From Candidatus Hydrogenedens sp. (GTDB lineage: Bacteria > Hydrogenedentota > Hydrogenedentia > Hydrogenedentales > Hydrogenedentaceae): a stretch of DNA of 64,000 nucleotides. Both the position numbers and the translations under genes were made by a program. The stretch lies in assembly GCA_049968235.1 (NCBI GenBank), contig JBMFRC010000004.1:160001-224000 (forward strand), written 5' to 3'. The first letter of the stretch is position 1. Every line of letters starts with the position of its first letter. Of this stretch, positions 20,744-58,828 are shown in pieces. The notes below the pieces were generated by a model. The model ran no database searches, was not told the DNA's origin, and saw nothing but the letters and a program-made list of their open reading frames with translations.

Positions 20744-20755
20744 AGTCTTATCCTG

Positions 20756-22018: not shown

Positions 22019-22027
22019 ATAAAACTC

Positions 22028-31343: not shown

Positions 31344-31375
31344 GAAGAATTCAAATAGTTCAGAAGGGATAAATT

Positions 31376-38817: not shown

Positions 38818-40281
38818 ATGAAACATGTTGTATTTGTAATGCCACCATATCCTTATTCTCGTTCCATTGGACAGGAGGAAGGAAAAAGGCAAATTGGGTT
38901 AATGCCGCCTTTAGGTGTTGGGTATCTTACTGCATACTTAGAGCGGACAGGGAAATACCAATGTTATTTTGTCGATGCAGTTGCGGAGAGGTTATCTATT
39001 GAGGAAACTGTTTCTCGTATTCTATCATTCGAACCGGATGTAATTGGAATTTCATCTTTTACGACTTTTCTTCTCAATACTTCATATCAACTTGCACGAA
39101 GATTAAAAGAAGAATGTCCTTCGATTCCATTGTTAATGGGAGGTCCTCACACTACTTCTTTCGGGGAACAGGTGTTGAAAGACTGTCCGTATATTGATTA
39201 TGTCATTCCGGGAGATGCTGAAGTTCCTCTTTTAGAGTTATTAGAAAAGATTTTTTGTGGAGATATACCGGATAAGGTAAAAGGCATCATTTATAAAAAT
39301 GAAAAAGATGAAATCGTAGATACGGGCTGTTCTATCCCTGTAGATGATATTGATACTCTACCTTTCCCCTCACGACACATTTATAACCATGAGTTATATG
39401 AGCCTTTACCGAGTTTAAGTCCCAAACGCCCTGCCATGTCGATGATTACAGCACGGGGTTGTCCATGGGCACGATGTAAATTTTGTTATCAGGGAGGGAA
39501 ATATGCATCTCCATTTCGTCGTCGGTCTCCGGAAAATGTTGTGGCAGAATTAAAATACCTTATTGAAAAATATAATGTAAAAAATATTGTATTCTGGGAT
39601 GATAATTTTTGTATCTTTCCTGAATGGATACATAAATTTTGCTCCCTTATAAAACAGGGGAAAATAAAATTAGATTGGTCTGTTTTATCGCGTGTAAATA
39701 CAGTAACACCGGAAATGTTAAATGAAATGGCAGAAGTAGGTTGTTACAGTATTCAATTTGGTATTGAATCCGGAAATGAGGAAATACTTAAACTTATTCG
39801 AAAAGGTCACACATTAGAACAATGTCGAAATGCAGTCCGCTGGGCAAAATCCGCTGGTATGGAGACAAGGGCTTTCTTTGTTTTGGGTTTTCCTACGGAG
39901 ACCCCAGCAATGAGTGAAGAGACTATTCGTTTTGCATGTGAATTAAATATCGATTATGTTGTTTTCTTTTCGTATTATGTAGCACCCGGAACACTTCTTG
40001 CCGAGATTGCTATGAGAGAAGGGCAGTGTTTTGAATTTATAGGACAACATTTACCTTCTTACCTTCCTAATACCTATCCTGATTTGGAGACATTAACAAA
40101 GAAAGTACAATCCGCCTATCGAAGATATTACCTCAGACCTCGATATTTCGCTCGAACTATTACAAGAACGATTCGTCGTCCCCATCATTTGAAAAATCAA
40201 ATAAAGGCATTTAATTATTGGCTTGGATTGAGTTTAAAAAAATGGACTCACAACAAAAATTCAACAGTTAACATAACCTAA
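38818..40281 (+). CDS. B12-binding domain radical SAM protein (class B rSAM)
   Basis: 487 aa. N-terminal cobalamin-binding Rossmann region (DVIGISSFTTF...LLMGGPHTT). Radical SAM Cys cluster (RGCPWARCKFCYQG), then the TIM-barrel core. Confidence 0.8.
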   Translation: MKHVVFVMPPYPYSRSIGQEEGKRQIGLMPPLGVGYLTAYLERTGKYQCYFVDAVAERLSIEETVSRILSFEPDVIGISSFTTFLLNTSYQLARRLKEECPSIPLLMGGPHTTSFGEQVLKDCPYIDYVIPGDAEVPLLELLEKIFCGDIPDKVKGIIYKNEKDEIVDTGCSIPVDDIDTLPFPSRHIYNHELYEPLPSLSPKRPAMSMITARGCPWARCKFCYQGGKYASPFRRRSPENVVAELKYLIEKYNVKNIVFWDDNFCIFPEWIHKFCSLIKQGKIKLDWSVLSRVNTVTPEMLNEMAEVGCYSIQFGIESGNEEILKLIRKGHTLEQCRNAVRWAKSAGMETRAFFVLGFPTETPAMSEETIRFACELNIDYVVFFSYYVAPGTLLAEIAMREGQCFEFIGQHLPSYLPNTYPDLETLTKKVQSAYRRYYLRPRYFARTITRTIRRPHHLKNQIKAFNYWLGLSLKKWTHNKNSTVNIT

Positions 40282-40297
40282 AAATAAAGGATAAACT

Positions 40298-41767
40298 ATG
40301 AGAACAAATATGTTCTTTTATTACTTCATAACAGGATTTCTATTCTCAATAATCTTTCAACAAATAGGAATAACCGAAGAAATATATAATATAGGAAACC
40401 GACGAGAAATTTTTATTGATAATAAATTAATTGATAAATTAGAGAATATATCATTTAAGTTATGTGAGCCTATTCCTGCTGAGAAGGTTTTATATTTTGA
40501 TAAACCGTGGGAGGGTAAACACAGTGGATATGTGACCTTAATCCATGACCAAGACATTTATCGCCTCTATTACAGAGGACTTCCTGTTTCAAAAGCCGAT
40601 GGCTCAAATGCAGAAGTTACCTGTTATGCAGAAAGCACAGATGGTATTCATTTCATTAAACCATCTTTGGGACTCTTTGAAATAGCAGGTTCAAAAGACA
40701 ATAATGTAATTCTTGCTAATGATCCACCTTTTTCACATAATTTTGCTCCTTTTATAGACGAAAAGCCCAACATTCCCAAGGAAGAACGATATAAAGCAGT
40801 GGCAGGGACTTTTGATAGTGGTTTATATACCTTCGTTTCCCCAGATGGAATCCGATGGCGGAAATTATCAGAGAAACCTATACTTAAAGGGGCATCATGG
40901 AAAGATTTTGCCTTTGATTCTCAAAATGTAGCTTTTTGGTCTATTTTAGAACAAAAGTATATTTTGTATTTTCGCACCTGGAATGGTCCCAATCAAGAAT
41001 ATCGTTGGGTAAGTCGAACAACCAGTTCAGATTTTTTAAATTGGGAAAAACCTGTAGTAATGGATAAAGGAAATGCACCATGGGAACATATATATACCAA
41101 TCAGACAATCCCTTATTTTAATGCTCCACACCTATATGTTTCAATATCAGCCCGATTTGTCCCTGGATGTAAAGTATTATTACAAGAAGAAATAAAATCC
41201 ATAGGGGTTGATATAGATTACAGTCATGATTGTTCCGATGTAATATTCATGAGTAGTCGAGGGGATAATATATATAGCCGATTTTTTTTAAATGCTTTCT
41301 TAAAACCTGAATATCCTTTAGAAAACTGGGTATCCAGAACCAATTATCCTGTGCGAGGCATTGTTCCTGCAGGTGATTATCAAATGGCTTTTTATATTCA
41401 AAAAAATTATGCACAGGACACTGCATATATTCAGCGATATTTACTTCGTCTGGATGGTTTTTCCTGTCTTTCCGCAGGATATGCAGAAGGTATTATTACC
41501 ACTGTGCCGTTAATTTTCAAAGGGGATAATCTGTTTCTTAACTTTGTTACCTCTGCTATAGGTTATATAAATGTAGAAGTTCAGGATATAAATGGAAATT
41601 CCATATCGGGATATGAGTTTAGTAATTCCATACCGTTGAAAGGAAATCGGATTAATTTCAAAGTATCATGGAATGATACTAATAATTTATCTTCATTGCA
41701 GGGAGCACCTATTCGATTATCTTTTAAGATGAAAGATGCAGATTTATATGCAATCCAATTTAAGTAA
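40298..41767 (+). CDS. secreted hypothetical protein (possible beta-propeller glycan-active enzyme)
   Basis: 489 aa. N-terminal hydrophobic signal/anchor. No motif I can assign with confidence. Occupies the operon between the rSAM and an esterase. Confidence 0.35.
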   Translation: MRTNMFFYYFITGFLFSIIFQQIGITEEIYNIGNRREIFIDNKLIDKLENISFKLCEPIPAEKVLYFDKPWEGKHSGYVTLIHDQDIYRLYYRGLPVSKADGSNAEVTCYAESTDGIHFIKPSLGLFEIAGSKDNNVILANDPPFSHNFAPFIDEKPNIPKEERYKAVAGTFDSGLYTFVSPDGIRWRKLSEKPILKGASWKDFAFDSQNVAFWSILEQKYILYFRTWNGPNQEYRWVSRTTSSDFLNWEKPVVMDKGNAPWEHIYTNQTIPYFNAPHLYVSISARFVPGCKVLLQEEIKSIGVDIDYSHDCSDVIFMSSRGDNIYSRFFLNAFLKPEYPLENWVSRTNYPVRGIVPAGDYQMAFYIQKNYAQDTAYIQRYLLRLDGFSCLSAGYAEGIITTVPLIFKGDNLFLNFVTSAIGYINVEVQDINGNSISGYEFSNSIPLKGNRINFKVSWNDTNNLSSLQGAPIRLSFKMKDADLYAIQFK

Positions 41768-41783
41768 TTAAGGAGGTATAACT

Positions 41784-42857
41784 ATGCTTTATAAAGCATT
41801 AACATTACTTCTTGTTTTTTTCTTAAACCAACAAAACATTTTAGAAAAACCTCCTTTTTATAAGGATAAGAATAATTTGCTTTATTACATTGGAAATGGA
41901 GGAGAAATTCATGAGATAACGAGTTTAAAAGAATGGGATATAAGGAAAAATCATATACTTCAAAATATGCTTCTTGTAATGGGTCCATTGCCAGACCGTT
42001 CCCATTTACCTCCTCTGGATGTGAAAGTTGAATCTACAGAGGATATGGGGTCATATTGGCGAAAGAAAATTACATTTAATGCTGAAAAAAATGATAGATT
42101 ACCTGCTTATTTGTTGGTACCTAAAAATGTTAATGGTAAAAGACCTGCTATTGTATGTTTACATCAAACTATAGATATTGGGAAAGCCGGTCCTGTGGGT
42201 ATCGGTGATTCTAAGAATCGACATCTGGCAAAAGAACTTGCTGAAAGAGGATATATTGTTATTGTCCCGGATTATCCGGGCTTTGGCGATTATAAGATTG
42301 ATGTATATTCAATGGGATATGCAAGTGCCACTGCGAAAGGTATTGGGAATCACCGTCGTTGCATTGACCTGCTACAAACAATGATTGAAGTGGATAAAGA
42401 TAAAATTGGCGCTATTGGACATTCTTTAGGTGGACACAACACTCTTTTTTTAGGGGCATTTGATAAACGGATTAAAGTAATGGTTACCAGTTGCGGTTTT
42501 ACCAGTATGAGAAAATATTATAATGGTGACTTAACAGGGTGGTCTCATAAAGGTTATATGCCAAGAATAAAAGAACAATATCAATGCAATCCGGACTTAC
42601 TCCCTTTTGATTTTACGGAAGTTCTCGGGATATTAGCTCCCCGCCCCGTATTTATTAACGCCCCCATACATGACAATAATTTTGAAGTAACAGGTGTAGA
42701 TGATTGCGTTAATTCTGCGCAAAGGATTTATACCCTTTATAAGGCAGAAGAAAACTTAAAAGGAATTCATCCGGATTGTGGACATGATTTCCCCCCTGAA
42801 ATCCGAGAAGAAGCCTATCGTTTTTTAGATAAACATTTAGGCTGGAACCCTAAATAG
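41784..42857 (+). CDS. alpha/beta-hydrolase (dienelactone hydrolase / acetyl-esterase-like) with signal peptide
   Basis: 357 aa. Nucleophile elbow GHSLGGHN. Catalytic His near the C-terminus (HPDCGHDFP). Confidence 0.7.
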   Translation: MLYKALTLLLVFFLNQQNILEKPPFYKDKNNLLYYIGNGGEIHEITSLKEWDIRKNHILQNMLLVMGPLPDRSHLPPLDVKVESTEDMGSYWRKKITFNAEKNDRLPAYLLVPKNVNGKRPAIVCLHQTIDIGKAGPVGIGDSKNRHLAKELAERGYIVIVPDYPGFGDYKIDVYSMGYASATAKGIGNHRRCIDLLQTMIEVDKDKIGAIGHSLGGHNTLFLGAFDKRIKVMVTSCGFTSMRKYYNGDLTGWSHKGYMPRIKEQYQCNPDLLPFDFTEVLGILAPRPVFINAPIHDNNFEVTGVDDCVNSAQRIYTLYKAEENLKGIHPDCGHDFPPEIREEAYRFLDKHLGWNPK

Positions 42858-42858
42858 A

Positions 42859-45072
42859 TTATCTGCCTTCACTTCCTAATTTTGCTGTTAAATATTCCTC
42901 AAAAAAAGACTCAATAAAAATTCCTTTATCTTTCAATTCATAATATTCCCGCAATGCTTTTTTATAATTCTTTTCTATGAAAATGGAATCAAGAAGATTT
43001 TTCCATGACCGGTATTGCCCATTTTCACATTGTATAGCGGAATAGAACCAATTTTTTGCTTCTTCCTCATTACCTTGAGATAGTGAAATAACACCTAAGG
43101 CAATTCGTGGAAGAGCAATATCAGGATTTATATGGATAATAAAGCGAAGTTTTTCTTGTGTGGTTTTCATATCGCCGTTTATCGATGTCATTATAGCATC
43201 AAAACATAGGTATGCCAATTTCAAATCTTTATCTAACAGAATCGCTTTTTGAAGGAAATATTCTTTATATCCCGGATTTATGTTTCTCTGACTTATCTGA
43301 TAATATCTCAGGGATTTTGTAAGTGTGGTGATATTTCCCCCACTTTTGAGAGTATTATATAAATTCTGAAATTGCAATTTTTGTAATGGGTCATTATTAA
43401 TCAATTTCTCAATTAGATACATTGCACACTCTTTGTGATTGGTTTCGACATTGGCAAGGGCAAAATCAGATATTGTAAATTTAAGGGAATCATTTTCAAA
43501 TTCTTTGCCTGCCTGATGAGAATATCCACCTCCTTGTTGGAATAGTACTTTATATAATCGGATAGGTTCTATACCGTATAAATCATAAGTTTCATATTGA
43601 ATTTGGTTGTTACTTAACAAACATTCCAATTCAGGGGAACCAAAATCGCCGAAATAAAAGGAGATATAAACAAACCATATTTTATCCGACAAACAACTTG
43701 ATTTTCTTTGAAATAGTTCATGAATAATTGGAATGAACGTGCTTATATCTTCAACAAAGGACACCGGTATTTTTTCATTTTTAAGATTAAATGTAAAGAC
43801 ATCTTTATTGATTGCTTGATACACAAATACAGGGGAGTTCTCTTTATCTGAATTTTGTTTTTCTATAAAATGAACTGTATCTTGCCAATTTGTTCTTTGG
43901 GGTCCCGGAAGAGTAATGATTAATTGATAACACAATATTAATATCAAGAAGATTAATAGTAAATAACCAATAATTTTGTGCTTATTTATTTTTATTAAAC
44001 TACCATAAAGCAAATATATTGCAAGGCTACAATATAAGGTATATCTTGGGAATATACATGGTCTCCATATAATAGACAGGACATATAATAATAACGGGGG
44101 GATTAAGATTATTAACAATAAAAGAACTATTCCATACCTTAATTTTAATTCACTTTCATTATCAACATGCCTAAAAACAAACCTAAAACTTAAAATCATC
44201 ACTATTGTAGTTATAACCAATAGAGAAGCATCAAATATAGAATGTATATTTATAAAATATTTGGGGATAACTTCTTCTATAACTCTTACCTGATATGTCA
44301 TTTTTACTGCGTCATCAGCAAATAAATCTCCAAGAAATTCAAATAGTGTCGGTATTTTAAACCAGGAAGACTGTTCCGATGAATAATAATGTATACTTGA
44401 TATATACACGATTGAGGGAATACTAATTAATATTTGAGATGCAATAAAGTAGTATTTCTTATAATCGCTTGTATAAAAAACATAAAATATCCATACTATT
44501 TCGATTATAAGGATAATTACAGCAAAAGGATGTGTCCATAATAAAAGGATGTTTATTAATGTTAAAGTAATCCAATTTTTTCTATTACGATTCTCAGAAT
44601 ATAAAAGCAAAAAATATATGGACAGAGTAAACAAAAGTGTTAATAAAACATACATTCGTATTCCCTGTCCAAAAAAACGATGAATCGGAGATATAGCGAA
44701 AAAAAATCCCGCCAACAAGCCCATCTTTTCTGAATTGAATCTTCGACCTATAAGGAATAGAACAGGGATAGTCATTACACTTAACAGAATGGATAGTAAA
44801 CGCAGACCTATAACAGAGGGGGAAACATAATGCCAGAAAAGGTATTCGAGTATATAATAAACAGGCATAGTGGCAGGGTCATAAAGAGGATTTAAGAAAA
44901 GGAATTCCTTTAATGATTCAGCATTAATATGCACTAAACTGGAATACTCATCCCACCAGACCGATTCATCTGAAATGTTATATATACGAATAACAAAAGC
45001 CAATAGGACAATAAGTGAACAATAAACTAACACGTGTATTTTATGTTTTTTTTGTCCTTTTATTTTTTCCAC
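42859..45072 (-). CDS. membrane GT-C glycosyltransferase (PMT/ArnT-like, DE-motif) with C-terminal TPR-like domain, subfamily B
   Basis: 737 aa. First-loop WWDEYSS (the DE motif of the PMT/ArnT/GT39-83 superfamily). About 11 TM helices. C-terminal soluble helical-repeat (TPR-like) region. Convergent with the esterase, with zero intergenic spacing. Confidence 0.7.
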   Translation of the reverse strand: MEKIKGQKKHKIHVLVYCSLIVLLAFVIRIYNISDESVWWDEYSSLVHINAESLKEFLFLNPLYDPATMPVYYILEYLFWHYVSPSVIGLRLLSILLSVMTIPVLFLIGRRFNSEKMGLLAGFFFAISPIHRFFGQGIRMYVLLTLLFTLSIYFLLLYSENRNRKNWITLTLINILLLWTHPFAVIILIIEIVWIFYVFYTSDYKKYYFIASQILISIPSIVYISSIHYYSSEQSSWFKIPTLFEFLGDLFADDAVKMTYQVRVIEEVIPKYFINIHSIFDASLLVITTIVMILSFRFVFRHVDNESELKLRYGIVLLLLIILIPPLLLYVLSIIWRPCIFPRYTLYCSLAIYLLYGSLIKINKHKIIGYLLLIFLILILCYQLIITLPGPQRTNWQDTVHFIEKQNSDKENSPVFVYQAINKDVFTFNLKNEKIPVSFVEDISTFIPIIHELFQRKSSCLSDKIWFVYISFYFGDFGSPELECLLSNNQIQYETYDLYGIEPIRLYKVLFQQGGGYSHQAGKEFENDSLKFTISDFALANVETNHKECAMYLIEKLINNDPLQKLQFQNLYNTLKSGGNITTLTKSLRYYQISQRNINPGYKEYFLQKAILLDKDLKLAYLCFDAIMTSINGDMKTTQEKLRFIIHINPDIALPRIALGVISLSQGNEEEAKNWFYSAIQCENGQYRSWKNLLDSIFIEKNYKKALREYYELKDKGIFIESFFEEYLTAKLGSEGR
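44741..45040. repeat. direct repeat copy A (5' end of the GT-C gene 42859-45072); near-identical to 52618-52900
   Basis: A run of roughly 110 bp appears identical in both copies (gacctataacagagggggaaacataatgccagaaaaggtattcgagtatataataaacaggcatagtggcagggtcataaagaggatttaagaaaaggaattcctttaatga). The flanks are roughly 85-90% similar. Copy B carries a short deletion in the 3' flank. Confidence 0.7.
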
Positions 45073-45329
45073 AAGAAAGCCTTAAATCACAAGTTATAAG
45101 ATAGAATTACATACTTACAGTTTAGCAATTGGGTGTTCGTGAATTCCATAGCCCCTTTGTAGCACGATGAATAAATATAAATGTTCAATATCAACAGGAA
45201 ATAAGACATTTATAAAAGTATATAGCAATAAGAAATAAGATAAAGCAGATAATATTAGAAAGCAAGAAGGAGAAATATATACTTGCGATTAAGTATCACC
45301 TAAATGCGAATACTATTCTGCAAAAACGA

Positions 45330-45995
45330 AAGATGATTAAAGAACCGAAAGAACCTATAAAACAATCGTAAAACTGTTGTATCTACGCCCGAGGATGATA
45401 ATGAAAGTAGAAGAATTGAGAAAACTTGATGATAAATCATCACGATCCCATAAACTACGAACCGTGTTCAATCTGAAGAATGACCAGAAAGCAGAGAATG
45501 TTAAAGCATTTTTAGATGAGTTGATGGCAGTCTATCCTTATCCAATACGAATGATACCGACCAATAATGGTAAGGAATCTACTAACTGCTTCTGCCGGGG
45601 TAGAAAACAACCCTCCGGTAAATATATCTTTGGGCACCTCTGTCAGAGACTCGTTATAGGATACTGACTGACTTTCCCTATACACCGGAAATAAATGGTT
45701 AGTAGAAGGTTTTAATGGTATAATAACAGAAATATTAAAACAACATTATTTCACGGATTACAAAAAGTCGATGGATAAATCAAACCAGTATACCTATTGT
45801 TATAATTATGTTCATAAACAACAATTATTAAACAACAAAAGCCCAGCAGAGGCATTAGGTAAATGGTATAATAAAAAATCTTTCCTTTTTCGCCCTCTTT
45901 TATTCTATCAAATTACATCTTTTCAAAACCTAGCAATTAATTACTATGAGAAAGAAAATCAGACGCAAAGTTATCCCTCAAACCTATTAAACTGA
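45330..45995 (+). pseudogene. degraded IS481/IS3-type transposase (rve integrase core) remnant
   Basis: Two short ORF fragments. LDDKSSRS...VKAFLDELMAVYPYPIRMIPTNNGKESTNCF matches the DDE core pattern (IDDHSR...AFL...VLTDNGxEF). ...YTYCYNYVHKQQLLNNKSPAEAL matches the conserved HxYNxxRPHxxL...TP C-terminus. There are multiple frame disruptions and no intact ORF. Confidence 0.55.
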
Positions 45996-50470: not shown

Positions 50471-50773
50471 TCATCATCATTATCATAGAGTATAAAACCC
50501 CAACTAAATAGGAGTAATATATGAAGAGAAGTTTTAACAAATCAATTCAATAGTACTATACAACAAATCGTAAATATCCATCTATAAAACTACTAATAAC
50601 AACTAAGTTCAAAAAAATTTCAATTAGAGTGGTAAGAACATAAAACAAAAATCTGTCAGTTTGTAATGGTAGTATTTGGAGGATGAAAATTATAATACAC
50701 GTTTTGTAGTATAATAAAGGAATATATTGTGTTATGTTTGTGTTTTATTGAAAAAAAGGGTAAAAGATAGTTT

Positions 50774-52312: not shown

Positions 52313-52617
52313 GAAAATCAACCTGGTCTCAAGCACAATTAGAATATTCGATAACGACAAGTGTATTGGGTACCACGAAGAAATTCAAAATTTAGCAAGT
52401 TAATATCTAAAACTAAAAAAACTCCTTTCATCAGTCTGCGAATAATCAATTCATTTAATTAAAAAGTATTCAGCCCACTTTATTACCACTTCACAATTAA
52501 AATAAAGAATATATATCCAATATTAAGAGGACGATATGAGAATTTAAGAAACGATAGAATTTGAAGGAGTTTACTACCCACCTTCTGCTGAGTAAAAAAA
52601 ACAGCCCTCAGGAAAAT

Positions 52618-52900
52618 ATATCTTCGACCTATAAGAAATTGGACATAGATAGTAAACGCAGACCTATAACAGAGGGGGAAACATAATGCCAGAAAAGGTA
52701 TTCGAGTATATAATAAACAGGCATAGTGGCAGGGTCATAAAGAGGATTTAAGAAAAGGAATTCCTTTAATGACCCAGCATTTATATGAACTAAACTGGAA
52801 TACTCATCCCACCACCCTGATTCATCTGAAGTTTTATATATACAAATAACAAAAGCCAATAAAATAATAAGCAAACAAAAAACAAACACTTGTATATTAT
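52618..52900. repeat. direct repeat copy B (inside the chimeric pseudogene)
   Basis: See copy A. The two copies have the same orientation and lie about 7.8 kb apart. They bracket the IS remnant, two GT-C paralogs and a B12-rSAM gene. Confidence 0.7.
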
Positions 52901-53401
52901 GTCTCTTAGGTAATAATCCGGGATTTTGGATTATTTCCCCTGTCTTATCCTTCCAGTAAATCCCATTAATATTCTGTAATGACTCTTTTTCCGGAAAAGT
53001 TTCTATAATCTGCTTTAATGCAATTTCGCCTTCCCCGGGACCAGAATATCTATATCTACATCGTCAAAGACACCTTTTCGGACTGCAGAAGCATGTGGTC
53101 ATCCTACAATAATCCATGCAGAAGGACAGGCTGTTCTAAGCATAGGAATTAATGAAGGCAATAAATAGGCAAAGGTTGTAAAAGTAGATATACCTATAAT
53201 ATCGGGATTAAATTCTTTAATACGCCCGCATAATTCTTCTACGCTATAATTTTCTAATCTTTGATTTAATATGCCTATATCAATATCTCTTAACGCCCTT
53301 CGGAGATACGCCGAAAGATAAAGTAAACCCATAGGAGGTGTGGCTAATGGATATAAAGGCCTTCGTAAACCCAGATTAACTAAAAACAATCTTTTCTTCA
53401 T
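52629..53401 (-). pseudogene. chimeric pseudogene: 5' part of a B12-rSAM (B12-binding domain) fused in-frame to the 5' end of a subfamily-B GT-C gene; disrupted by an in-frame TGA and a -1 frameshift
   Basis: Minus-strand reading 53401->53099 gives MKKRLFLVNL...IGISTFTTF...AWIIVG then TGA. The intact paralog has IVGGPHxx here, so GGA->TGA. Continuing gives PHASAVRKGVFDDVDIDILV. Then a 1-nt loss in a G-run (ccgggg) shifts into GEGEIALKQIIETFPEKESLQNINGIYWKDKTGEIIQNPGLLPKRHNIQ. This runs directly into VFVFCLLIILLAFVICIYKTSDESGWWDEYSSLVHINAGSLKEF..., the N-terminus of the 42859-45072 GT-C protein. It terminates at 52629. Confidence 0.6.
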
Positions 53402-53451
53402 TTATCTCGGACCTAAATAGTTAAAATTATACACCAAATTTTTTTATCATT

Positions 53452-54624
53452 TCAGATAGCATGGAAAAATTTTTCATAGGTATGTGCTGGTATAGCATGA
53501 AATTTACATAAAATCCATACCAACCATTTAAATTTTCGAAGTAAGGGATAATACGAGGGATAGTCTGTAAAGTACTTATTGGGTGCATTAATAATTGCCT
53601 CAAATTCTTCACGACTTATACCTTGTTTTCTTAAACAATGTTCAACTCGTTCTTCATCTTCAAAAAATGGAACTTCTCGTAACGCTCTTAATGCGGATTC
53701 GCGAGATATTACACCCGTTCTGACTTTTGCAGATAGTTCTACTACACGCCAGTCAAAACCGAATTTTCTCCGGGCATAATAGTAAACCAGAGTAAACAGT
53801 TCATTATCCAGGTGATGTTGCCCTGTATCCTGCCAATCAAATTTCTCTTTTAATAATTTCTCTACTTTTTCCCCCGTATCATCATAGTAATTGGTAATAT
53901 TTATTACACGGATTCTTTTCCAGAGAATCCAATAAATCATATCCTTTAATTCTACATTTTGAAAATGCTTTAACGGTATTGTGCAATATCGTTTGACAAT
54001 AGCACGCGTATATTTCCCGTCAATGTAGTTCCATTTCAATGGCGTTATCCCTTCTTCACGGAAGGAATGACTTAAAATAATGTAATGGACATTCTCGGCA
54101 ACTGCAGTTCGATATAAACTACTTGCAATGCCTATATCATCTGTTAGGTCAATATAAGGGACACAGGCGCGGATAGTTGCATTAGTCAATTCTCGTGATT
54201 CAGGCCAGTCCATAATTATTGTATGTAATTCTACATCTAATTTATCGCAGAGTTTGGCAAGGTTTGTTTTGGCAATTTCCGAGTCCCAACCGTTATCAAA
54301 ATGAACAGCCAGAGGACGCAATTTCATTATTTCCTTAACATAATATAAACAATAAGAAGTATCTCTCCCACCACTGACCCCAACTATACAATCGTATTTT
54401 TTTTCTTTTCCATCGTTTCTTATCTTCTCTGCAATTTTTTGCAATATCATTGCTCCTTTTTCGCCGGTAGGAAAACGCCTATCCAATTTATCATGTATGT
54501 GGCAGAAATTACATATACCTTGATGATCTAAATAAACTCCCGGAATAGATGTATCCATAACACATCGTTTGCATAATGTTTTATCTTCATTTTGTCGAAA
54601 CATATATCTACCAACTCTATTCAT
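53452..54624 (-). CDS. N-acetyl sugar amidotransferase, PP-loop ATPase family (WbuX/PseA-like)
   Basis: 390 aa. N-terminal Cys cluster (CKRCVMD...CNFC). PP-loop SGGxDS (CIVGVSGGRDTSY). Immediately followed by HisF- and HisH-like genes, the conserved acetamidino-sugar trio. Confidence 0.75.
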   Translation of the reverse strand: MNRVGRYMFRQNEDKTLCKRCVMDTSIPGVYLDHQGICNFCHIHDKLDRRFPTGEKGAMILQKIAEKIRNDGKEKKYDCIVGVSGGRDTSYCLYYVKEIMKLRPLAVHFDNGWDSEIAKTNLAKLCDKLDVELHTIIMDWPESRELTNATIRACVPYIDLTDDIGIASSLYRTAVAENVHYIILSHSFREEGITPLKWNYIDGKYTRAIVKRYCTIPLKHFQNVELKDMIYWILWKRIRVINITNYYDDTGEKVEKLLKEKFDWQDTGQHHLDNELFTLVYYYARRKFGFDWRVVELSAKVRTGVISRESALRALREVPFFEDEERVEHCLRKQGISREEFEAIINAPNKYFTDYPSYYPLLRKFKWLVWILCKFHAIPAHTYEKFFHAI

Positions 54625-55439
54625 AATCGTGATAATTCTAAATCAATCGGTTTTTTGGGGTCTCTTTTCCGAACATGTTCAGGTCGAAAATGCTCTAATA
54701 ATTGTTCTTCTGTAGGATAAGTTATTAATACTGTTCTTCGAGGACCGTAAAAAAGGAAGAATGCCCCACATGCTACTGCAGAAACTCCCGAAAAATAATA
54801 GGCATCCGCTAAATCTTTTACAGAACCTGCACCTCCGCAAGCAATTACAGGAATCTGGACATTATCTACAATCACTTTTATTAATTCCAAATCATATCCT
54901 TCAAGAGTCCCATCTCTATCAATACTTGTAATTAATATTTCACCTGCTCCTTCTTCCTCCGCTCTTTTCGCCAATTCGATTGGATTCAATCCTGTTGATT
55001 TTCGTCCTCCATGTGTGAATACTTCATATTTGCCATTTACTCTACGGACATCAATGGATACTACAATACATTGTCTTCCAAACTGTTCAGCGGATTTTTT
55101 TAATAAATCGGGAACCTCAATTACAGAAGTGTTAAGGACCACTCTATCAGCCCCTGCATTCAGTAATTCTCTTATGGTATTAATATCACGAATTCCGCCT
55201 CCAACTGTAAACGGCATGGATGTTTCCGCAGATATTTGTTTCACTATCTCTATTTCTGGAGAGCGATTTTCAAGTGTTGCTACAATATCTAACAAGATTA
55301 ATTCATCTACATTATGTTGATTAAAAACACGAGCTGCATTAATGGGACAACCCACATATTTCGGATTGGTAAATTGGATTGTTTTTTCCAATCCCCAATG
55401 TCGTAATAAAAGGACAGGTATCACTCTAACTTTTAGCAT
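54621..55439 (-). CDS. imidazole glycerol phosphate synthase cyclase-subunit paralog (HisF-like, WbuZ-type) of a glycan amidotransferase module
   Basis: 272 aa. HisF (beta/alpha)8 motifs (RVIPVLLL...DELILLDI...FTVGGGIR...ADRVVLNTS...IVVSIDV...GAGEILITSIDRDGT). Its context, not the his operon, indicates the LPS/glycan role. Confidence 0.8.
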   Translation of the reverse strand: MLKVRVIPVLLLRHWGLEKTIQFTNPKYVGCPINAARVFNQHNVDELILLDIVATLENRSPEIEIVKQISAETSMPFTVGGGIRDINTIRELLNAGADRVVLNTSVIEVPDLLKKSAEQFGRQCIVVSIDVRRVNGKYEVFTHGGRKSTGLNPIELAKRAEEEGAGEILITSIDRDGTLEGYDLELIKVIVDNVQIPVIACGGAGSVKDLADAYYFSGVSAVACGAFFLFYGPRRTVLITYPTEEQLLEHFRPEHVRKRDPKKPIDLELSRL

Positions 55440-56085
55440 TCAATACCTCGTTTAAAAAATTTTGTATTAACATTGTACCACTGATATAACTCTTTTCGGG
55501 ATGAAATTGAGTTCCATAAATATTCTTGTTTTGATATAAGGAAATAAATGGAATTCCATATTCCGTTATTCCCAGTTTTCCATTAATTTCCTTAAATGGA
55601 ACAAAATAAGAATGAGCAAAATAAAAATTAGGGGTTTCTATCATTCCGGATAACAATGATAATTCTTCTTTATAAACCTTTACATCGTTCCAACCGATAT
55701 GTGGTACGCGAATAGGGTCTTTAACTACATCTCGTATATGACAAACTCTTGCAGGTATCCATCCTAATCCCTTTGATTTTCCTTCCTCACTGAATTCTGT
55801 CATAATTTGAAAGCCTAAACAAATACCCAAGACGGGCTTTTTTAATTCTAATACATAATGATTTAATCTTCTGGTCAAGCCTATCTTTGTAAGGAAATCC
55901 ATAGCACTTCCGCAAGCACCAACTCCAGGTAAGACAATTGCATCGAATTTATCCAACTCAATTTCATTACTAACAACTTCAATAGCAACTCCGGTTTTAG
56001 CAAAACAACGATATACTGAATGTATATTTCCTGCGGAGTAATCAATAATTCCAATTTTTATATTTTTATCTTGAAATATTTTCAT
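55426..56085 (-). CDS. glutamine amidotransferase subunit paralog (HisH-like, WbuY-type)
   Basis: Class I GATase triad context (GICLGFQ Cys; HPEKS His). The ORF track extends to 56121, but MKIFQDKNIKIGIIDYSAGN at about 56085 is the likelier start. Confidence 0.8.
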   Translation of the reverse strand: MKIFQDKNIKIGIIDYSAGNIHSVYRCFAKTGVAIEVVSNEIELDKFDAIVLPGVGACGSAMDFLTKIGLTRRLNHYVLELKKPVLGICLGFQIMTEFSEEGKSKGLGWIPARVCHIRDVVKDPIRVPHIGWNDVKVYKEELSLLSGMIETPNFYFAHSYFVPFKEINGKLGITEYGIPFISLYQNKNIYGTQFHPEKSYISGTMLIQNFLNEVLNAKS

Positions 56086-57811
56086 TCCCACGGAAACTAT
56101 CCTTGTTTTGTGCCACCACAAAATTATTCAAAAACAGGTAATCCAGTCCTGACTCTATAAATGTCTGTAAGGCTTCTTCTGGAGTCCGAACAATGGGTGA
56201 TTCATGCATATTGAAACTTGTATTCAGTATTACACTGGTTCCTGTTAATTCCTTATAATTTTTTAATATTTTATAAAAAGTCGGATTATTTTCTTTTTTT
56301 ACAAGTTGGGCTCGCGTTGTTCCATCTATATGTACAACGGCACCATGTTGTTCTTTCATCTTTTGTGTACTTCGAAAACAGCATGTCATAAATTCACCTG
56401 CATGCCTTGCTTTTTCATATCCTATCAAAAACTGTTCCGCGTCCTCATATAAAAGAGCCGGAGCAAAAGGCATAAAATCACTTCGTTTTAACATAATGTT
56501 TAACTTTCCTGTTATATCCCGCATTGTAGAATCACATAAGATAGAACGATTACCTAAAGCACGTGGTCCCCATTCCATTTTATCATAAAATCGTGCAATA
56601 ATTTTTTTATGATAAAGACTTTCTGCTATAAATTGAAATATTTTTGTATCATCAAATTCCTGAAATGGAAGATTATATTTAAGTATTGCTGATTTAATTT
56701 CTTCGTTACTAAAACAATCTCCCCAAAATGCGTGCGGGAGGGGCTGGGGATTGAAATGGAATTGCGAACATATAGCCCCCAGGCTCAGTCCCCCATCTCC
56801 CATGTTTGGATATACAAATAATTCTTCGACTTCTGGTAATTCATGTATTTTTTGATTTAGCAACACATTAGCAAATACTCCTCCTGCAACGGCTACCTTA
56901 TTAAGTCCTGTTTTCTTTAGCCAATATTGAATTAAAGAACCAATTGTCTGTTCTAAGATATTTTGTGACCATGCACATAAATCCTCTCTTGAATATTTTT
57001 GTAATAATTGCAAAAGCCAGTCTCTTAATTTTTTACCATGAGGACCTTTGTATAAGAGAAGATTTTCATTCCATGAAAATGGGTTTTCATCTTTAATTTT
57101 GGATGCATCTCCATGGGCAGAAAGTCCCGTAAGTTTTCCTTCATCTCTACAAGGAACAAAGCCTAATACCTCTGTTAAATTTTCAAAAAATAGGCCAAAA
57201 GAACTTTTAGCAGAGGATTTCCATAACCTTGTTATAATATTTCCATGTCCTTGAGAAACAGTTAAGGATAGTCCATCCCCCATTCCATCTGCAGTAACAA
57301 TAAGTGCATTATCATACCCCGAACAGAAATAACTTCCCCATGCATGGGCTTCGTGATGCTCAATAAAATAAATAGGGATATGAGGAGGAAGAAAGGGTAA
57401 TCGCTTATGAATTATTTTTTTCAAAATGACAGATAATTTTTTTTTCATTCCTTCGGATGGATTCATATAACTAATAGGATTATAAGAAACAGCCCATTCT
57501 GTAATATTACTCCAATATGTTTTACTTTTTTGATTTTTTTCTCGCCTTGAAAGAAATGCTTTTTTTTGTAAATTTGGGAATAAGCGAAAAAATGGGAATG
57601 GGGTTACAAATCCAGAGACACATACTCCTTCTATATCTTTCCAGGTTAAACCTGTTTGTTTTAAGGCATTTTCTAACGATAGGTATGGAAAGCCTCCCTC
57701 ATTTTTTCTTTGTGTGTATCGTTCCTCGTTGGACATAAATAAAATTTTATCATCATCACAAAGAGTAACACCCGCGTCAAAAAAATCTTCACTAATTCCC
57801 AATATAATCAT
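56066..57811 (-). CDS. NodU/CmcH-family carbamoyltransferase
   Basis: 581 aa. ASKHA-fold N-domain (MIILGISEDFFDAGVTLC...). Metal-binding His residues (HHEAHAW). C-terminal YrdC-like carbamoyl-adenylate domain. Family members O-carbamoylate sugars and antibiotics. Confidence 0.8.
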   Translation of the reverse strand: MIILGISEDFFDAGVTLCDDDKILFMSNEERYTQRKNEGGFPYLSLENALKQTGLTWKDIEGVCVSGFVTPFPFFRLFPNLQKKAFLSRREKNQKSKTYWSNITEWAVSYNPISYMNPSEGMKKKLSVILKKIIHKRLPFLPPHIPIYFIEHHEAHAWGSYFCSGYDNALIVTADGMGDGLSLTVSQGHGNIITRLWKSSAKSSFGLFFENLTEVLGFVPCRDEGKLTGLSAHGDASKIKDENPFSWNENLLLYKGPHGKKLRDWLLQLLQKYSREDLCAWSQNILEQTIGSLIQYWLKKTGLNKVAVAGGVFANVLLNQKIHELPEVEELFVYPNMGDGGLSLGAICSQFHFNPQPLPHAFWGDCFSNEEIKSAILKYNLPFQEFDDTKIFQFIAESLYHKKIIARFYDKMEWGPRALGNRSILCDSTMRDITGKLNIMLKRSDFMPFAPALLYEDAEQFLIGYEKARHAGEFMTCCFRSTQKMKEQHGAVVHIDGTTRAQLVKKENNPTFYKILKNYKELTGTSVILNTSFNMHESPIVRTPEEALQTFIESGLDYLFLNNFVVAQNKDSFRGNENISR

Positions 57812-57841
57812 GAATAATCAATCCTTTGAATTGAAAACAAT

Positions 57842-58828
57842 TTATATCCATAGAGCATTCCAGATTGCAGAAGGATTTAAATTCCATATTAAAGCAAGTT
57901 CTACTATCGGTGCACACCAACAGGTTGCACAACCTATAGGAACTGTTAATTGTTTTATTGACTTCTCGAAATTTTTTTCTGTTTCTTTTTTCTGTTTATA
58001 CAGTTTTCGTGTTCCAAACAAGTGGCAGGAAAGTATCGTTCCATCCGGTTCTATTGTATATGTTAACCGACCTGCACAACACCATATTTTCGTGGGATGA
58101 GGCCAGTTGCTTAAATATTTTAAGCCTGCAAATGAATTGCGTACAGGTGCCCCCTGTTTTTTATTTTTTATAATGTACTGTATCGTATCAAAATACTCAT
58201 CTTTATTAGGAGCAATTGGATTGGGTTTTAATGATGAATCCAGATGTAGAGTTGCAGGTTGAAACATTACTTTAATATGTTCTTCCTGAGCCTTTTGCAA
58301 AACATAATCTATTGTTTTTATATTTAGTTTTGAAATTACACATAAAAAAGATGTAGATATATTTTTCATTTTGCAATATTTTACAACCTCAAATAAATGT
58401 TTGTAGGTCCCTTTACCTCGGATTTCATCATGTATCTCTTCGGGACCATCAAAACTTAAATTAATATGGTCAATATACTTCTCAATTCCGTCATGTTTTT
58501 CTATGTTTACCCCCGTAGAACTTAAAAAAATGTTCAATCCAAGTGATTTTGAATGTTGCAAAATTGTCATTATATCTTTTTTAATTAATGGTTCTCCTCC
58601 ACCAAATGTAATCCATCTTACACCTGATTTGTATAAGATTGTTAATCTTTCTATAATTTCTTCCGTATCTAACTCATTTATAGAAACTTCACGAGAACCA
58701 CAGTAAAGGCACTGATAAGGACAACGAAAAGTTAAATTCCATTCTACAAACAATGGTGCATTTATCCCTAATATTTTTGTTTTTATCCATGATTTTAAGA
58801 GTGCAGGGACGTTTTTTATTTTCTTCAT
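57842..58828 (-). CDS. radical SAM protein with C-terminal SPASM/twitch-like Cys-rich domain
   Basis: 328 aa. CxxxCxxC (LTFRCPYQCLYCGS). C-terminal auxiliary-cluster cysteines (CCAGRL...CHLFG...CATCWC). Confidence 0.7.
   Translation of the reverse strand: MKKIKNVPALLKSWIKTKILGINAPLFVEWNLTFRCPYQCLYCGSREVSINELDTEEIIERLTILYKSGVRWITFGGGEPLIKKDIMTILQHSKSLGLNIFLSSTGVNIEKHDGIEKYIDHINLSFDGPEEIHDEIRGKGTYKHLFEVVKYCKMKNISTSFLCVISKLNIKTIDYVLQKAQEEHIKVMFQPATLHLDSSLKPNPIAPNKDEYFDTIQYIIKNKKQGAPVRNSFAGLKYLSNWPHPTKIWCCAGRLTYTIEPDGTILSCHLFGTRKLYKQKKETEKNFEKSIKQLTVPIGCATCWCAPIVELALIWNLNPSAIWNALWI

What the first reader, a model, noticed from the sequence alone, without database searches (positions are those of the whole stretch)
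38818..58828. Three-plus radical SAM enzymes within one glycan island
The island holds two intact class-B (cobalamin) rSAMs at 38818 and 50774, one decayed copy at 53099-53401, and a SPASM-type rSAM at 57842. Radical SAM density this high in a surface-glycan locus is unusual.

The SPASM enzyme could form a thioether or epimerise a sugar or peptide. The B12 enzymes often methylate unactivated carbons. The substrates are unknown.
Basis: inference. Interest (0 to 1): 0.55.

Follow-up and report, generated by a model that had tools for sequence, protein, structure and literature searches.

The report
Radical SAM enzymes in glycan island
A conserved envelope-sugar gene island of an uncultivated Hydrogenedentota bacterium carries three intact radical SAM enzymes and one broken one, all from uncharacterised families, which most likely tailor an amino sugar before it is attached outside the cell membrane.

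Summary
38818-40281 and 50774-52312 encode intact B12-binding radical SAM (rSAM) proteins (B1, B2). 53401-~52880 is a true remnant of a third (B3), intact in relatives. 57842-58828 is a small rSAM.

"SPASM-type" is only partly right. The family conserves five C-terminal cysteines, not the seven-Cys SPASM set, and misses the Pfam SPASM model. That fits a one-cluster Twitch-like domain.

The clustering is not chance:
- A membrane-anchored GT2 of polyprenyl-phosphate-sugar-synthase type lies directly upstream of B1 orthologues in 16 of 17 loci.
- Within the small rSAM's family, a carbamoyltransferase follows directly in 16 of 30 loci.
- A DegT aminotransferase lies within 3 kb in 9 of 21 loci and is fused to the rSAM in public proteins.
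- B2 belongs to a portable three-gene module inserted here; the B3 remnant adjoins the insertion.

Best reading (inferred): a lipid-carrier glycosylation system (GT2, flippase-like protein, six GT-C transferases) for an aminated, acetamidino- and carbamoyl-modified sugar, with rSAM steps. The chemistry is untested. Moderately interesting.

The parts
32812..34995 (+). GT-C glycosyltransferase (PMT_2) with C-terminal TPR repeats; first gene of the plus-strand operon
   Evidence: Pfam PMT_2 44.2 bits plus many TPR models. Multiple TM segments. Orthologues in L002 and L091-L100.
35009..37654 (+). Second GT-C (PMT_2) plus TPR glycosyltransferase; its end overlaps the GT2 start by 4 nt
   Evidence: Pfam PMT_2 42.9 bits plus TPR. 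Coordinates.
37651..38802 (+). Membrane-anchored GT2 of the polyprenyl-phosphate-sugar synthase type
   Evidence: Glycos_transf_2 99.6 bits. Best NCBIfam hits are AglJ, PpgS, Dol-P-hexose transferase and ArnC, all below cut-off. About four C-terminal TM segments at residues 231-374. Directly upstream of B1 orthologues in 16 of 17 loci.
38818..40281 (+). B1: intact B12-binding-domain radical SAM enzyme
   Evidence: 933 homologues, mostly labelled Hydrogenedentes. AlphaFold model pLDDT 87. Foldseek top hits TsrM, OxsB, AprD4 (TM 0.72/0.76), MgmA, TokK, CysS.
40298..41767 (+). 489-aa protein of unknown family with a hydrophobic N-terminus (read from the sequence; the TM scan did not flag it); syntenic with B1
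   Evidence: No Pfam hit. Only a weak GH130-like NCBIfam hit. Conserved after B1 in L006-L011 and L092-L100.
41784..42857 (+). Alpha/beta hydrolase (esterase-like, glucuronyl/acetyl-xylan esterase-type hits)
   Evidence: Pfam Peptidase_S9, GCE_fung, AXE1. Syntenic in relatives.
42859..45072 (-). GT-C-like glycosyltransferase, 737 aa, full-length copy
   Evidence: Weak PMT_2 hit. 60-72% identical to the L006/L007 gene that follows B3 or WbuX. Eight TM segments.
45073..52644 (.). Extra segment of about 7.6 kb carrying the B2 module, bounded by a direct repeat of the GT-C gene's 5' end (44789-45051 versus 52645-52907, 92% over 263 nt)
   Evidence: Repeat found. The segment is absent from L006-L011 and L092-L100. 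The same three genes lie elsewhere in MAG GCA_017880035.1, locus L089, where B2 is 90% identical.
45937..48261 (-). GT-C-like polytopic membrane protein, 774 aa, tandem paralogue of the next gene
   Evidence: No Pfam hit. 30% identical over its full length to 48221-50470. Many TM segments.
48221..50470 (-). GT-C (PMT_2) glycosyltransferase, 749 aa
   Evidence: PMT_2 32.2 bits.
50774..52312 (+). B2: intact B12-binding-domain radical SAM enzyme with a C-terminal hydrophobic segment (residues 444-478)
   Evidence: 413 homologues. A 34%-identical full-length homologue lies next to LPG_synthase_TM and GT-C genes in L005.
52629..52907 (-). Duplicated 5' fragment (residues about 8-95) of the GT-C gene 42859-45072
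   Evidence: tblastn 69-76% amino-acid identity. 92% DNA identity.
52878..53401 (-). B3 remnant: N-terminal B12-binding domain of a third rSAM, with an in-frame TGA, a frameshift and loss of the rSAM core
   Evidence: Intact orthologue in L006, L009, L011, L096, L097 and L100.
53452..54624 (-). WbuX-type N-acetyl sugar amidotransferase
   Evidence: TIGR03573 218.6 bits, above the 203.2 cut-off.
54621..55439 (-). HisF-like acetamidino-modification protein (AglZ/HisF2 family)
   Evidence: NF038364 327.7 bits, above the 310 cut-off.
55426..56121 (-). HisH-like glutamine amidotransferase subunit
   Evidence: TIGR01855 197.6 bits, above the 105.4 cut-off.
56066..57811 (-). NodU/CmcH-type carbamoyltransferase
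   Evidence: Carbam_trans_N 93 bits and Carbam_trans_C 187 bits. Directly downstream of the small rSAM in 16 of 30 species-representative loci.
57842..58828 (-). Small radical SAM enzyme with a Twitch-like C-terminal domain (five conserved extra Cys: C251, C268, C300, C303, C305)
   Evidence: Model pLDDT 90. Foldseek hits SuiB, BlsE, CteB, PqqE, SkfB, MoaA, anSME. Profile against PDB: SkfB 4e-30, CteB, PqqE. Fusions to DegT and to a B12-rSAM.
58825..59757 (-). LPG_synthase_TM (MprF flippase-domain-like) membrane protein; its stop overlaps the small rSAM start by 4 nt
   Evidence: PF03706 75.3 bits. TIGR00374 flippase-like domain, below cut-off. Upstream of the small rSAM in 13 of 32 loci.
59782..60978 (+). 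DegT/DnrJ/EryC1-family sugar aminotransferase, divergent from the minus-strand operon
   Evidence: PF01041 211.5 bits. Best NCBIfam hits LegC, PseC and ArnB, all below cut-off. 33% identical over its full length to the DegT half of fusion protein P0424.
60991..64000 (-). GT-C plus TPR glycosyltransferase that runs off the window end
   Evidence: Aligns to residues 255-1253 of the 1255-aa L006 protein at 80% identity. TPR models.

Best explanation
The region is a conserved envelope-glycan island of a Hydrogenedens-like bacterium (phylum Hydrogenedentota). It is built like the Arn, Gtr or PMT type of lipid-carrier glycosylation system.

**Proposed pathway**
1. A membrane-anchored GT2 loads a sugar onto polyprenyl phosphate.
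2. An MprF-flippase-like membrane protein moves the lipid-linked sugar across the membrane.
3. Six GT-C transferases, three of them with TPR domains, attach it to acceptors outside the cytoplasmic membrane.

**Sugar tailoring.** The sugar is made or tailored by a DegT aminotransferase, a WbuX/HisH/HisF acetamidino-forming trio and a NodU-type carbamoyltransferase.

**Radical SAM steps**
- *Small Twitch-like enzyme.* It acts on the sugar together with DegT. The most likely role is an oxygen- and NAD-independent oxidation of a sugar C-OH to a ketone, which DegT then transaminates, as BtrN and BtrS do. Less likely roles are the reverse DesI/DesII-type deamination, or an epimerisation.
- *B1.* It acts on the product of the GT2 immediately upstream, that is, a lipid-linked sugar. 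The reaction would be a C-methylation or a rearrangement.
- *B2.* It is membrane-anchored and belongs to a portable module with two GT-C genes that was inserted into this island. The remnant of B3, a third cobalamin-type enzyme, directly adjoins that insertion.

**Shown:** the domain architectures, family memberships by curated cut-off, synteny, gene fusions and the rearrangement.

**Inferred:** every substrate and every chemical step.
For: **Architecture and family scores**
- Searches give the domain and family scores.
- WbuX, HisF2/AglZ and HisH pass curated cut-offs.
- GT2 is closest to AglJ, PpgS, Dol-P-hexose transferase and ArnC, and has C-terminal TM segments.

**B1 and GT2**
- GT2 lies immediately upstream of B1 in 4 of 4 look-ups.
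- It also does so in 12 of 13 metagenome loci with at least 55% identity.

**Small rSAM and its partners**
- It overlaps the LPG_synthase_TM gene by 4 nt.
- A carbamoyltransferase follows it in 16 of 30 loci. DegT lies within 3 kb in 9 of 21. One or the other is present in 16 of 21.
- Rosetta-stone fusions exist in both orders: rSAM-DegT (P0416) and DegT-rSAM (P0424). A B2-like B12-rSAM is also fused to the small rSAM (P0474).
- Both halves of P0424 align over their full length to the window's DegT (33%, E=1e-59) and to its small rSAM (31%, E=1e-48).
- Five conserved extra cysteines fit a single auxiliary cluster.
- The fold lies in the SPASM/Twitch group, which includes the sugar-acting BlsE at TM 0.68.
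- For BtrN, the auxiliary cluster is proposed to accept the electron during alcohol oxidation (PMC9012708).

**B2 and B3**
- B2 has a C-terminal hydrophobic segment, kept in its closest homologues.
- B2 recurs beside GT-C-like genes.
- The rearrangement is documented.

**Comparable loci:** the Omnitrophota locus L036 interleaves rSAM genes with GT2, GT9 and DegT.
Against: - No substrate or product is known for any of these rSAM families.
- By sequence, the small rSAM is closest to peptide-modifying enzymes: SkfB 4e-30, then CteB and PqqE. BtrN matches only weakly (E=0.002, core only).
- The island lacks a recognisable nucleotidyltransferase, 4,6-dehydratase or N-acetyltransferase, so the sugar's origin is unclear.
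- In many Hydrogenedentota loci the triad LPG_synthase_TM / small rSAM / carbamoyltransferase stands alone, without DegT, GT2 or GT-C nearby.
- The 44-49%-identity clade of B1 relatives lies in a different context, next to a lipid A acyltransferase.
- B1's best global structural match, AprD4, does not bind cobalamin (PMC12931638). Cobalamin use by B1 is therefore not certain.
- No flippase activity has been shown for this branch of PF03706.
Confidence: 0.55

Rival explanations
1. The island makes or modifies a membrane lipid or glycolipid head group rather than a surface glycan. GT2 followed by B1 would work like HpnI and HpnJ of hopanoid biosynthesis: a sugar is added to a lipid and then undergoes radical ring contraction to a cyclitol. 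The archaeal calditol synthase is a similar precedent. LPG_synthase_TM would play the part of HpnL, and B2 would modify lipid chains.
For: - HpnJ is the top NCBIfam hit of B1 (185 bits).
- The trio of GT2, B12-rSAM and a PF03706 protein mirrors hpnI, hpnJ and hpnL (own knowledge for HpnL; HpnI, HpnK and HpnJ are described in PMC13459092).
- B2's best hits include the 'lipid biosynthesis B12-binding/radical SAM protein' TIGR04072 (81 bits).
- B2 has a membrane anchor.
- A B1-like clade lies beside an LpxL-type acyltransferase and a ceramidase-like gene.
- The LPG_synthase_TM / rSAM / carbamoyltransferase triad often occurs without glycosyltransferases.
Against: - HpnJ scores far below its cut-off (185 against 578), and BchE scores almost the same (181).
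- No shc, hpnH, hpnG or hpnK-type genes were seen in the window.
- Six GT-C transferases with TPR domains, and the acetamidino trio known from O-antigen and N-glycan sugars, point to glycan transfer onto acceptors.
Confidence: 0.2
2. The small rSAM is a peptide (RiPP) maturase that forms a thioether or other cross-link, as its closest solved relatives do. On this reading it is not functionally linked to the sugar genes.
For: The profile search against PDB ranks SkfB (4e-30), CteB (1.2e-29) and PqqE (4.8e-24) first. Foldseek ranks SuiB, CteB, PqqE and SkfB high.
Against: - There is no room for a precursor-peptide gene. The gene overlaps LPG_synthase_TM by 4 nt and lies 31 nt from the carbamoyltransferase.
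- No RiPP recognition, leader peptidase or transporter genes are present.
- The conserved partners are a carbamoyltransferase and DegT.
- Family members are fused to DegT in both orders.
- All named peptide-maturase models score far below their cut-offs.
Confidence: 0.05
3. The B12-type enzymes are sugar C-methyltransferases of the GenK, GenD1 or MoeK5 kind acting on soluble nucleotide sugars in the cytoplasm. They would not act on lipid-linked intermediates, and their position next to GT2 and GT-C genes would reflect only operon packing.
For: - Most characterised class-B rSAMs are methyltransferases, including several that act on sugars (PMC12931638).
- B3's best hits are methyltransferase families (Sden_1168, ApyD).
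- B1 has no TM segment.
Against: - The near-invariant position of B1 immediately after a membrane-anchored GT2 (16 of 17 loci) suggests a more specific link.
- So does B2's own membrane anchor.
- B1's top family hits, HpnJ and BchE, are non-methylating members.
Confidence: 0.15

Closest known systems
Arn pathway (ArnC GT2, ArnD, ArnE/F flippase, ArnT GT-C); also mycobacterial PpgS/Rv3779 and DPM synthase with PMT/TMTC O-mannosylation
   Same: A membrane-anchored GT2 whose nearest families are AglJ, PpgS, Dol-P-hexose transferase and ArnC. A candidate flippase. PMT_2-type GT-C transferases, some with TPR domains as in the eukaryotic TMTC enzymes (the comparison with TMTC is from my own knowledge). 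An ArnB-like DegT aminotransferase.
   Different: All scores are below the equivalog cut-offs. The candidate flippase is a PF03706 protein, not ArnE/F or GtrA. There are six GT-C paralogues. Radical SAM genes are embedded in the operons, which is not a feature of those systems.
HpnI / HpnK / HpnJ / HpnL of hopanoid side-chain biosynthesis
   Same: A GT2 directly followed by a B12-binding rSAM, with a PF03706 membrane protein nearby. HpnJ is the best-scoring named family for B1 (PMC13459092).
   Different: B1 scores 185 bits against a cut-off of 577.6. No squalene-hopene cyclase, HpnH, HpnG or HpnK genes are seen. The context here is GT-C/TPR, acetamidino and carbamoyl genes.
BtrN (Twitch rSAM dehydrogenase) with BtrS aminotransferase; DesI with DesII
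   Same: An rSAM enzyme functionally paired with a DegT-family aminotransferase on an amino-sugar or aminocyclitol pathway. BtrN has one auxiliary cluster in a truncated SPASM (Twitch) domain (PMC9012708). Here the pairing shows up as adjacency and as gene fusions.
   Different: Sequence similarity to BtrN is marginal (E=0.002, core only) and to DesII insignificant (E about 0.02). The cysteine pattern has an extra fifth Cys. The substrates are unknown. The context is envelope glycan, not an antibiotic pathway.
AglX/AglY/AglZ and WbuX/WbuY/WbuZ acetamidino-sugar systems
   Same: WbuX, the HisF-like protein and the HisH-like protein all pass curated cut-offs.
   Different: None for these three genes. 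The novelty lies in their rSAM neighbours.
Structurally characterised class-B rSAMs (TsrM, OxsB, TokK, MgmA/QCMT, CysS) and AprD4
   Same: B1's model matches them with Foldseek E-values from 1e-19 to 1e-23. The domain order is the same: an N-terminal Rossmann-like B12 domain followed by the rSAM barrel.
   Different: Only 15-21% identity. No C-terminal extension like those of TokK or OxsB. The best global match, AprD4, is a sugar diol-dehydratase that does not bind cobalamin (PMC12931638).

Membership tests
Class B (cobalamin-binding) radical SAM enzymes | N-terminal B12-binding (Rossmann) domain, PF02310, above the gathering score | tested here: met
   B1 68.1 bits, B2 55.0 bits and the remnant 35.5 bits, against a cut-off of 32.1.
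Class B (cobalamin-binding) radical SAM enzymes | Radical SAM core with a CxxxCxxC-type cluster motif | tested here: met
   B1 has C215/C220/C223 (Cx4Cx2C) and B2 has C205/C209/C212. The remnant has lost this part.
Class B (cobalamin-binding) radical SAM enzymes | Actual binding and use of cobalamin | not testable with these tools
   AprD4 and ArsL carry a similar domain without binding cobalamin (PMC12931638). AprD4 is B1's best global fold match.
HpnJ (hopanoid-associated rSAM, TIGR03471) | Score above the curated equivalog cut-off | tested here: not met
   B1 scores 185.4 bits against 577.6.
HpnJ (hopanoid-associated rSAM, TIGR03471) | Hopanoid gene context (shc, hpnH, hpnG, hpnK) | tested here: not met
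   None was found among the window ORFs scanned with Pfam.
BchE (TIGR02026) | Score above the curated cut-off | tested here: not met
   B1 scores 181 bits against 481.35 and B2 52.7 bits.
SPASM-domain radical SAM enzymes | PF13186 SPASM domain and the seven-Cys motif for two auxiliary clusters | tested here: not met
   No PF13186 hit at E up to 0.01. Only five conserved extra Cys in 24 family members.
Twitch-domain radical SAM enzymes | Truncated SPASM domain with cysteines for one auxiliary cluster, and a fold shared with SPASM/Twitch enzymes | tested here: met
   Invariant C-x17-C ... C-x2-C-x-C in the alignment (C251, C268, C300, C303, C305 counting Met1). The CX9-15GX4C element is present. 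Foldseek hits SuiB, BlsE, CteB, PqqE, SkfB, MoaA and anSME. Cluster binding itself is not testable here.
PqqE / anaerobic sulfatase maturase / named peptide maturases | Score above the curated cut-off and the cognate gene context | tested here: not met
   PqqE scores 82.8 bits against 381.35. Every other named model is far below its cut-off. There are no pqq genes, sulfatase genes or precursor-peptide genes nearby.
WbuX/HisH/HisF (AglXYZ) acetamidino-sugar system | All three proteins above the curated cut-offs and adjacent | tested here: met
   TIGR03573 218.6 above 203.2. NF038364 327.7 above 310. TIGR01855 197.6 above 105.4. The genes are contiguous at 53452-56121.
NodU/CmcH/TobZ carbamoyltransferases | Carbam_trans_N and Carbam_trans_C domains | tested here: met
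   93 and 187 bits. The NodU equivalog itself is not met (86 bits against 1000).
Lipid-carrier (polyprenyl-phosphate) three-component glycosylation | A GT2 polyprenyl-P-sugar synthase, a flippase and a GT-C transferase encoded together | tested here: inconclusive
   The architecture is present: GT2 with TM segments, a PF03706 protein and PMT_2 proteins. All equivalog cut-offs are missed, and neither the lipid-linked donor nor flipping can be tested.

The most novel reading that the evidence does not exclude
Uncultivated anaerobic phyla (Hydrogenedentota, Omnitrophota) may use radical SAM chemistry as a routine part of envelope-glycan biosynthesis.

- A Twitch-type rSAM, sometimes fused to a DegT aminotransferase, would provide an NAD- and oxygen-independent route to keto and amino sugars.
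- A cobalamin-type rSAM would remodel a sugar after it has been loaded onto polyprenyl phosphate. That would be a radical counterpart of DprE1/DprE2 or ArnD, and possibly an HpnJ-like ring contraction.
- The result would be surface sugars of a kind not yet described.
Probability: 0.3. Interest if true: 0.7.

Novelty: new variant of a known kind. Interest (0 to 1): 0.5.

Why it matters
Radical SAM enzymes that act on sugars are known almost only from antibiotic pathways such as butirosin, desosamine, gentamicin and apramycin.

Here four distinct, uncharacterised rSAM families are fixed partners of envelope-glycosylation genes across a whole candidate phylum. One of them is fused to a sugar aminotransferase in public proteins.

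If the inferred roles hold, three things follow:
- Several large 'unknown' rSAM families would get a function. The small rSAM family alone has more than 150 representative clusters at 50% identity that score at least 300 bits.
- The surface sugars of organisms that have never been cultured could be predicted.
- It would be a case of sugar tailoring at the lipid-linked stage by radical chemistry.

The proteins are small and soluble (B1 and the small rSAM), so the idea can be tested directly in vitro.

Tried and rejected
- **Sequence-similarity network against RadicalSAM.org.** Not possible with these tools. I used NCBIfam curated cut-offs and PDB sequence and fold searches as a substitute.
- **Sigma-54 promoter.** A search for a -24/-12 promoter downstream of the conserved sigma-54 two-component pair found 29 matches, a count reached by 1 of 100 shuffles (mean 18.5), but none at a relevant intergenic site.
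- **Sigma-70 promoters and terminators.** The scan gave nothing usable.
- **Literature.** Searches for rSAM together with Hydrogenedentes, GT-C/TPR or carbamoyltransferase/polyprenyl found no relevant paper.
- **PDB sequence search for B2.** No hit.
- **Decayed copy as a recent duplicate of B1 or B2.** Rejected: 39% and about 34% identity, against 65-67% to the B3 orthologue.
- **TGA in the remnant as recoding.** Rejected, because a frameshift and a deletion of the whole rSAM core accompany it.
- **Apparent truncation of the last GT-C/TPR gene.** This is only the window edge.

Full report

Yes. ORF listing and Pfam scans confirm each feature.

- B1 (38818-40281, +, 487 aa) has a B12-binding domain (68.1 bits) and a Radical_SAM domain (91.8 bits).
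- B2 (50774-52312, +, 512 aa) has the same two domains (55.0 and 65.1 bits).
- The 100-aa ORF at 53099-53401 (-) has a B12-binding domain only (35.5 bits).
- The 328-aa protein at 57842-58828 (-) has Radical_SAM (76.7 bits) and Fer4_12, but no SPASM hit.
- Cluster motifs are present in all three intact proteins.
- No rSAM domain was found among the ORFs scanned in the first 30 kb of the window, which encode housekeeping functions (ORFs of at least 100 aa that did not lie inside a longer ORF). tblastn with the three rSAM proteins finds nothing else in the window.

**2. The decayed copy**

- Reading the minus strand shows an in-frame TGA exactly where B12-rSAMs carry GGPH ("IIVG*PH").
- A frameshift follows. 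Recognisable sequence then continues to about 52880.
- The remnant is only 39% identical to B1. It is 65-67% identical to residues 3-176 of an intact 479-aa B12-rSAM ("B3"). In close relatives B3 sits between WbuX and a GT-C gene (L006, L009, L011, L096, L097, L100).
- The rSAM core of B3 is deleted.
- The remnant abuts a duplicated 5' piece (residues about 8-95) of the GT-C gene. The full copy of that gene is at 42859-45072.
- The two copies form a 263-nt direct repeat, 92% identical and 7,856 nt apart.
- Between the repeats lie B2 and two tandem GT-C-like paralogues (45937-48261 and 48221-50470, 30% identical to each other).
- The relatives lack this 7.6-kb segment. The same three genes, with B2 at 90% identity, sit at an unrelated place in MAG GCA_017880035.1 (L089).
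- So B2 arrived as a portable module by a recombination event, and the deleted B3 remnant lies directly at its edge. Some relatives (L007, L008, L010) lack B3 altogether.

**3. Organism and family breadth**

- The B1 protein occurs identically on a 12.4-kb contig of MAG GCA_049971155.1.
- The nearest named genome is Candidatus Hydrogenedens terephthalaticus, whose small rSAM is 87% identical (L032).
- B1 has 933 detectable homologues and B2 has 413. Most labelled ones are Hydrogenedentes/Hydrogenedentota.
- A profile of the small rSAM finds more than 150 representative clusters (50% identity level) that score at least 300 bits over the full length. 3,992 clusters match at E up to 1e-30.

**4. 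Family placement**

- No rSAM here reaches the curated cut-off of any NCBIfam model.
  - B1: HpnJ 185 against 578, BchE 181 against 481.
  - B2: MJ_1487 family 83 against 251, ladderane-type lipid rSAM 81 against 360.
  - Small rSAM: PTO1314 family 101 against 306, PqqE 83 against 381.
  - B3: Sden_1168 P-methyltransferase family 151 against 575.
It is not met.
- An AlphaFold model of B1 (pLDDT 87) matches TsrM, OxsB, AprD4 (TM 0.72/0.76), MgmA, TokK and CysS. This confirms the class-B architecture.
- The review PMC12931638 notes that AprD4 does not bind cobalamin, so cofactor use by B1 stays inferred.

**5. The "SPASM" enzyme**

- An alignment of 24 family members shows the rSAM triad plus five invariant cysteines: C251, C268, C300, C303 and C305, counting Met1. 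The pattern is C-x11-G-x4-C ... C-x2-C-x-C.
- That is the first SPASM element plus a shortened second one. It is enough for one auxiliary cluster, which is how a Twitch domain is defined in PMC9012708.
- The model (pLDDT 90) matches SuiB, BlsE (TM 0.68/0.68), CteB, PqqE, SkfB, MoaA, anSME and viperins.
- By profile sequence search the closest solved proteins are SkfB (4e-30), CteB and PqqE. BtrN is marginal at 0.002.

**6. Gene context**

*Plus-strand operon*

| Coordinates | Gene |
|---|---|
| 32812-34995 | GT-C + TPR |
| 35009-37654 | GT-C + TPR |
| 37651-38802 | GT2 |
| 38818-40281 | B1 |
| 40298-41767 | 489-aa unknown protein |
| 41784-42857 | esterase-like hydrolase |

A PAS histidine kinase and a sigma-54 response regulator precede this operon, and they are conserved in the same order in L002.

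GT2 is closest to AglJ, PpgS, Dol-P-hexose transferase and ArnC, and carries C-terminal TM segments. GT2 lies immediately upstream of B1 orthologues in 4 of 4 look-ups and in 12 of 13 metagenome loci with at least 55% identity.

*Minus-strand operon*

| Coordinates | Gene |
|---|---|
| 58825-59757 | LPG_synthase_TM protein (4-nt overlap with the next gene) |
| 57842-58828 | small rSAM |
| 56066-57811 | NodU-type carbamoyltransferase |
| 55426-56121 | HisH-like |
| 54621-55439 | HisF2/AglZ |
| 53452-54624 | WbuX |
| 52878-53401 | B3 remnant |

HisH, HisF2/AglZ and WbuX all score above their curated cut-offs. DegT (59782-60978) is divergent from this operon.

*Partners of the small rSAM across 35 species-representative loci*

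- The carbamoyltransferase follows directly in 16 of 30.
- LPG_synthase_TM precedes it in 13 of 32.
- DegT lies within 3 kb in 9 of 21.
- The carbamoyltransferase or DegT is present in 16 of 21.

*Fusions.* Public proteins fuse this rSAM family to DegT in both orders (P0416 and P0424) and to a B2-like B12-rSAM (P0474). P0424 aligns over its full length to the window's DegT (33%) and to its small rSAM (31%).

*Omnitrophota.* Locus L036 packs about seven rSAM genes among two GT2, one GT9 and one DegT gene in one 17-kb operon. Six are confirmed by Pfam scan or family membership. The seventh rests on a tblastn match only.

**7. Mechanism**

Shown: the architecture, the synteny and the fusions.

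Inferred:

- The island is a lipid-carrier glycosylation system of the Arn, Gtr or PMT kind.
- It handles a sugar that is aminated (DegT), converted to an acetamidino form (WbuX/HisH/HisF) and carbamoylated.
- The fusion and adjacency with DegT, together with a single auxiliary cluster, best fit a BtrN-like radical oxidation of C-OH to C=O that feeds the transaminase. A DesI/DesII-type deamination or an epimerisation are alternatives.
- B1 most plausibly acts on the lipid-linked product of its upstream GT2. The reaction would be a methylation or a rearrangement. HpnI/HpnJ is the nearest precedent for a GT2 followed by a B12-rSAM (PMC13459092).
- B2 has a C-terminal hydrophobic segment that its closest homologues keep. 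It recurs beside GT-C-like genes.

**8. Caveats**

- The sequence neighbours of the small rSAM are peptide maturases.
- The triad LPG_synthase_TM / rSAM / carbamoyltransferase often stands alone.
- A B1-like clade at 44-49% identity sits beside a lipid A acyltransferase.
- No nucleotide-sugar-forming genes are visible in the island.
- A lipid or glycolipid product therefore remains a serious rival.

**9. Novelty and score**

- The enzyme classes and the glycosylation logic are known.
- The fixed embedding of four uncharacterised rSAM families in such islands was not found described in the literature I could search. Nor were the rSAM-DegT fusions.
- I rate it a new variant of a known kind, with interest 0.5.

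Noticed in passing
window 30171-32767 (+): A PAS histidine kinase and a sigma-54-dependent response regulator sit directly upstream of the GT-C/TPR-GT2-B1 operon, in the same order as in locus L002. This suggests the island is regulated. No convincing -24/-12 promoter was found.
   Followed up: partly
window 10032-13637 (-): A 1201-aa protein with Peptidase_C25 (gingipain-type) and its propeptide domain.
   Followed up: no
public proteins P0416, P0424, P0474, P0473: Natural fusions of the small-rSAM family: rSAM-DegT, DegT-rSAM, B12-rSAM-small rSAM, and SPASM rSAM-small rSAM.
   Followed up: partly
L036 1-17709 (Omnitrophota MAG JABMQS010000025.1): A single-strand operon with about seven radical SAM genes: one SPASM, four B12-type and two small, one of which is identified only by a tblastn match. 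They are interleaved with two GT2, one GT9 (heptosyltransferase family) and one DegT gene.
   Followed up: partly
L135 8461-13805: A B1-like protein of the 44-49% identity clade lies between a ceramidase-like gene and a beta-CASP nuclease, next to an LpxL-type lipid A acyltransferase. This is a different, lipid-flavoured context.
   Followed up: no
window 40298-41767 (+): A 489-aa protein with a hydrophobic N-terminus and no Pfam family, only a weak GH130-like hit. It is strictly syntenic with B1 and the esterase in close relatives.
   Followed up: no
window 20372-23494 (-) and 24646-26091 (-): GlpA/GlpB-like FAD oxidoreductases with DUF1667, and an alpha-L-fucosidase with an F5/8 type C domain.
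   Followed up: no
window 15558-16463 (-): A tyrosine recombinase (Phage_integrase plus SAM-like N-terminal domain), possibly housekeeping XerC/D. It is more than 16 kb from the island.
   Followed up: no
window 60991-64000 (-): The GT-C/TPR gene is cut by the window end. The listed GTG start at 63900 is an artefact, because similarity to the 1255-aa orthologue continues to base 63999.
   Followed up: yes
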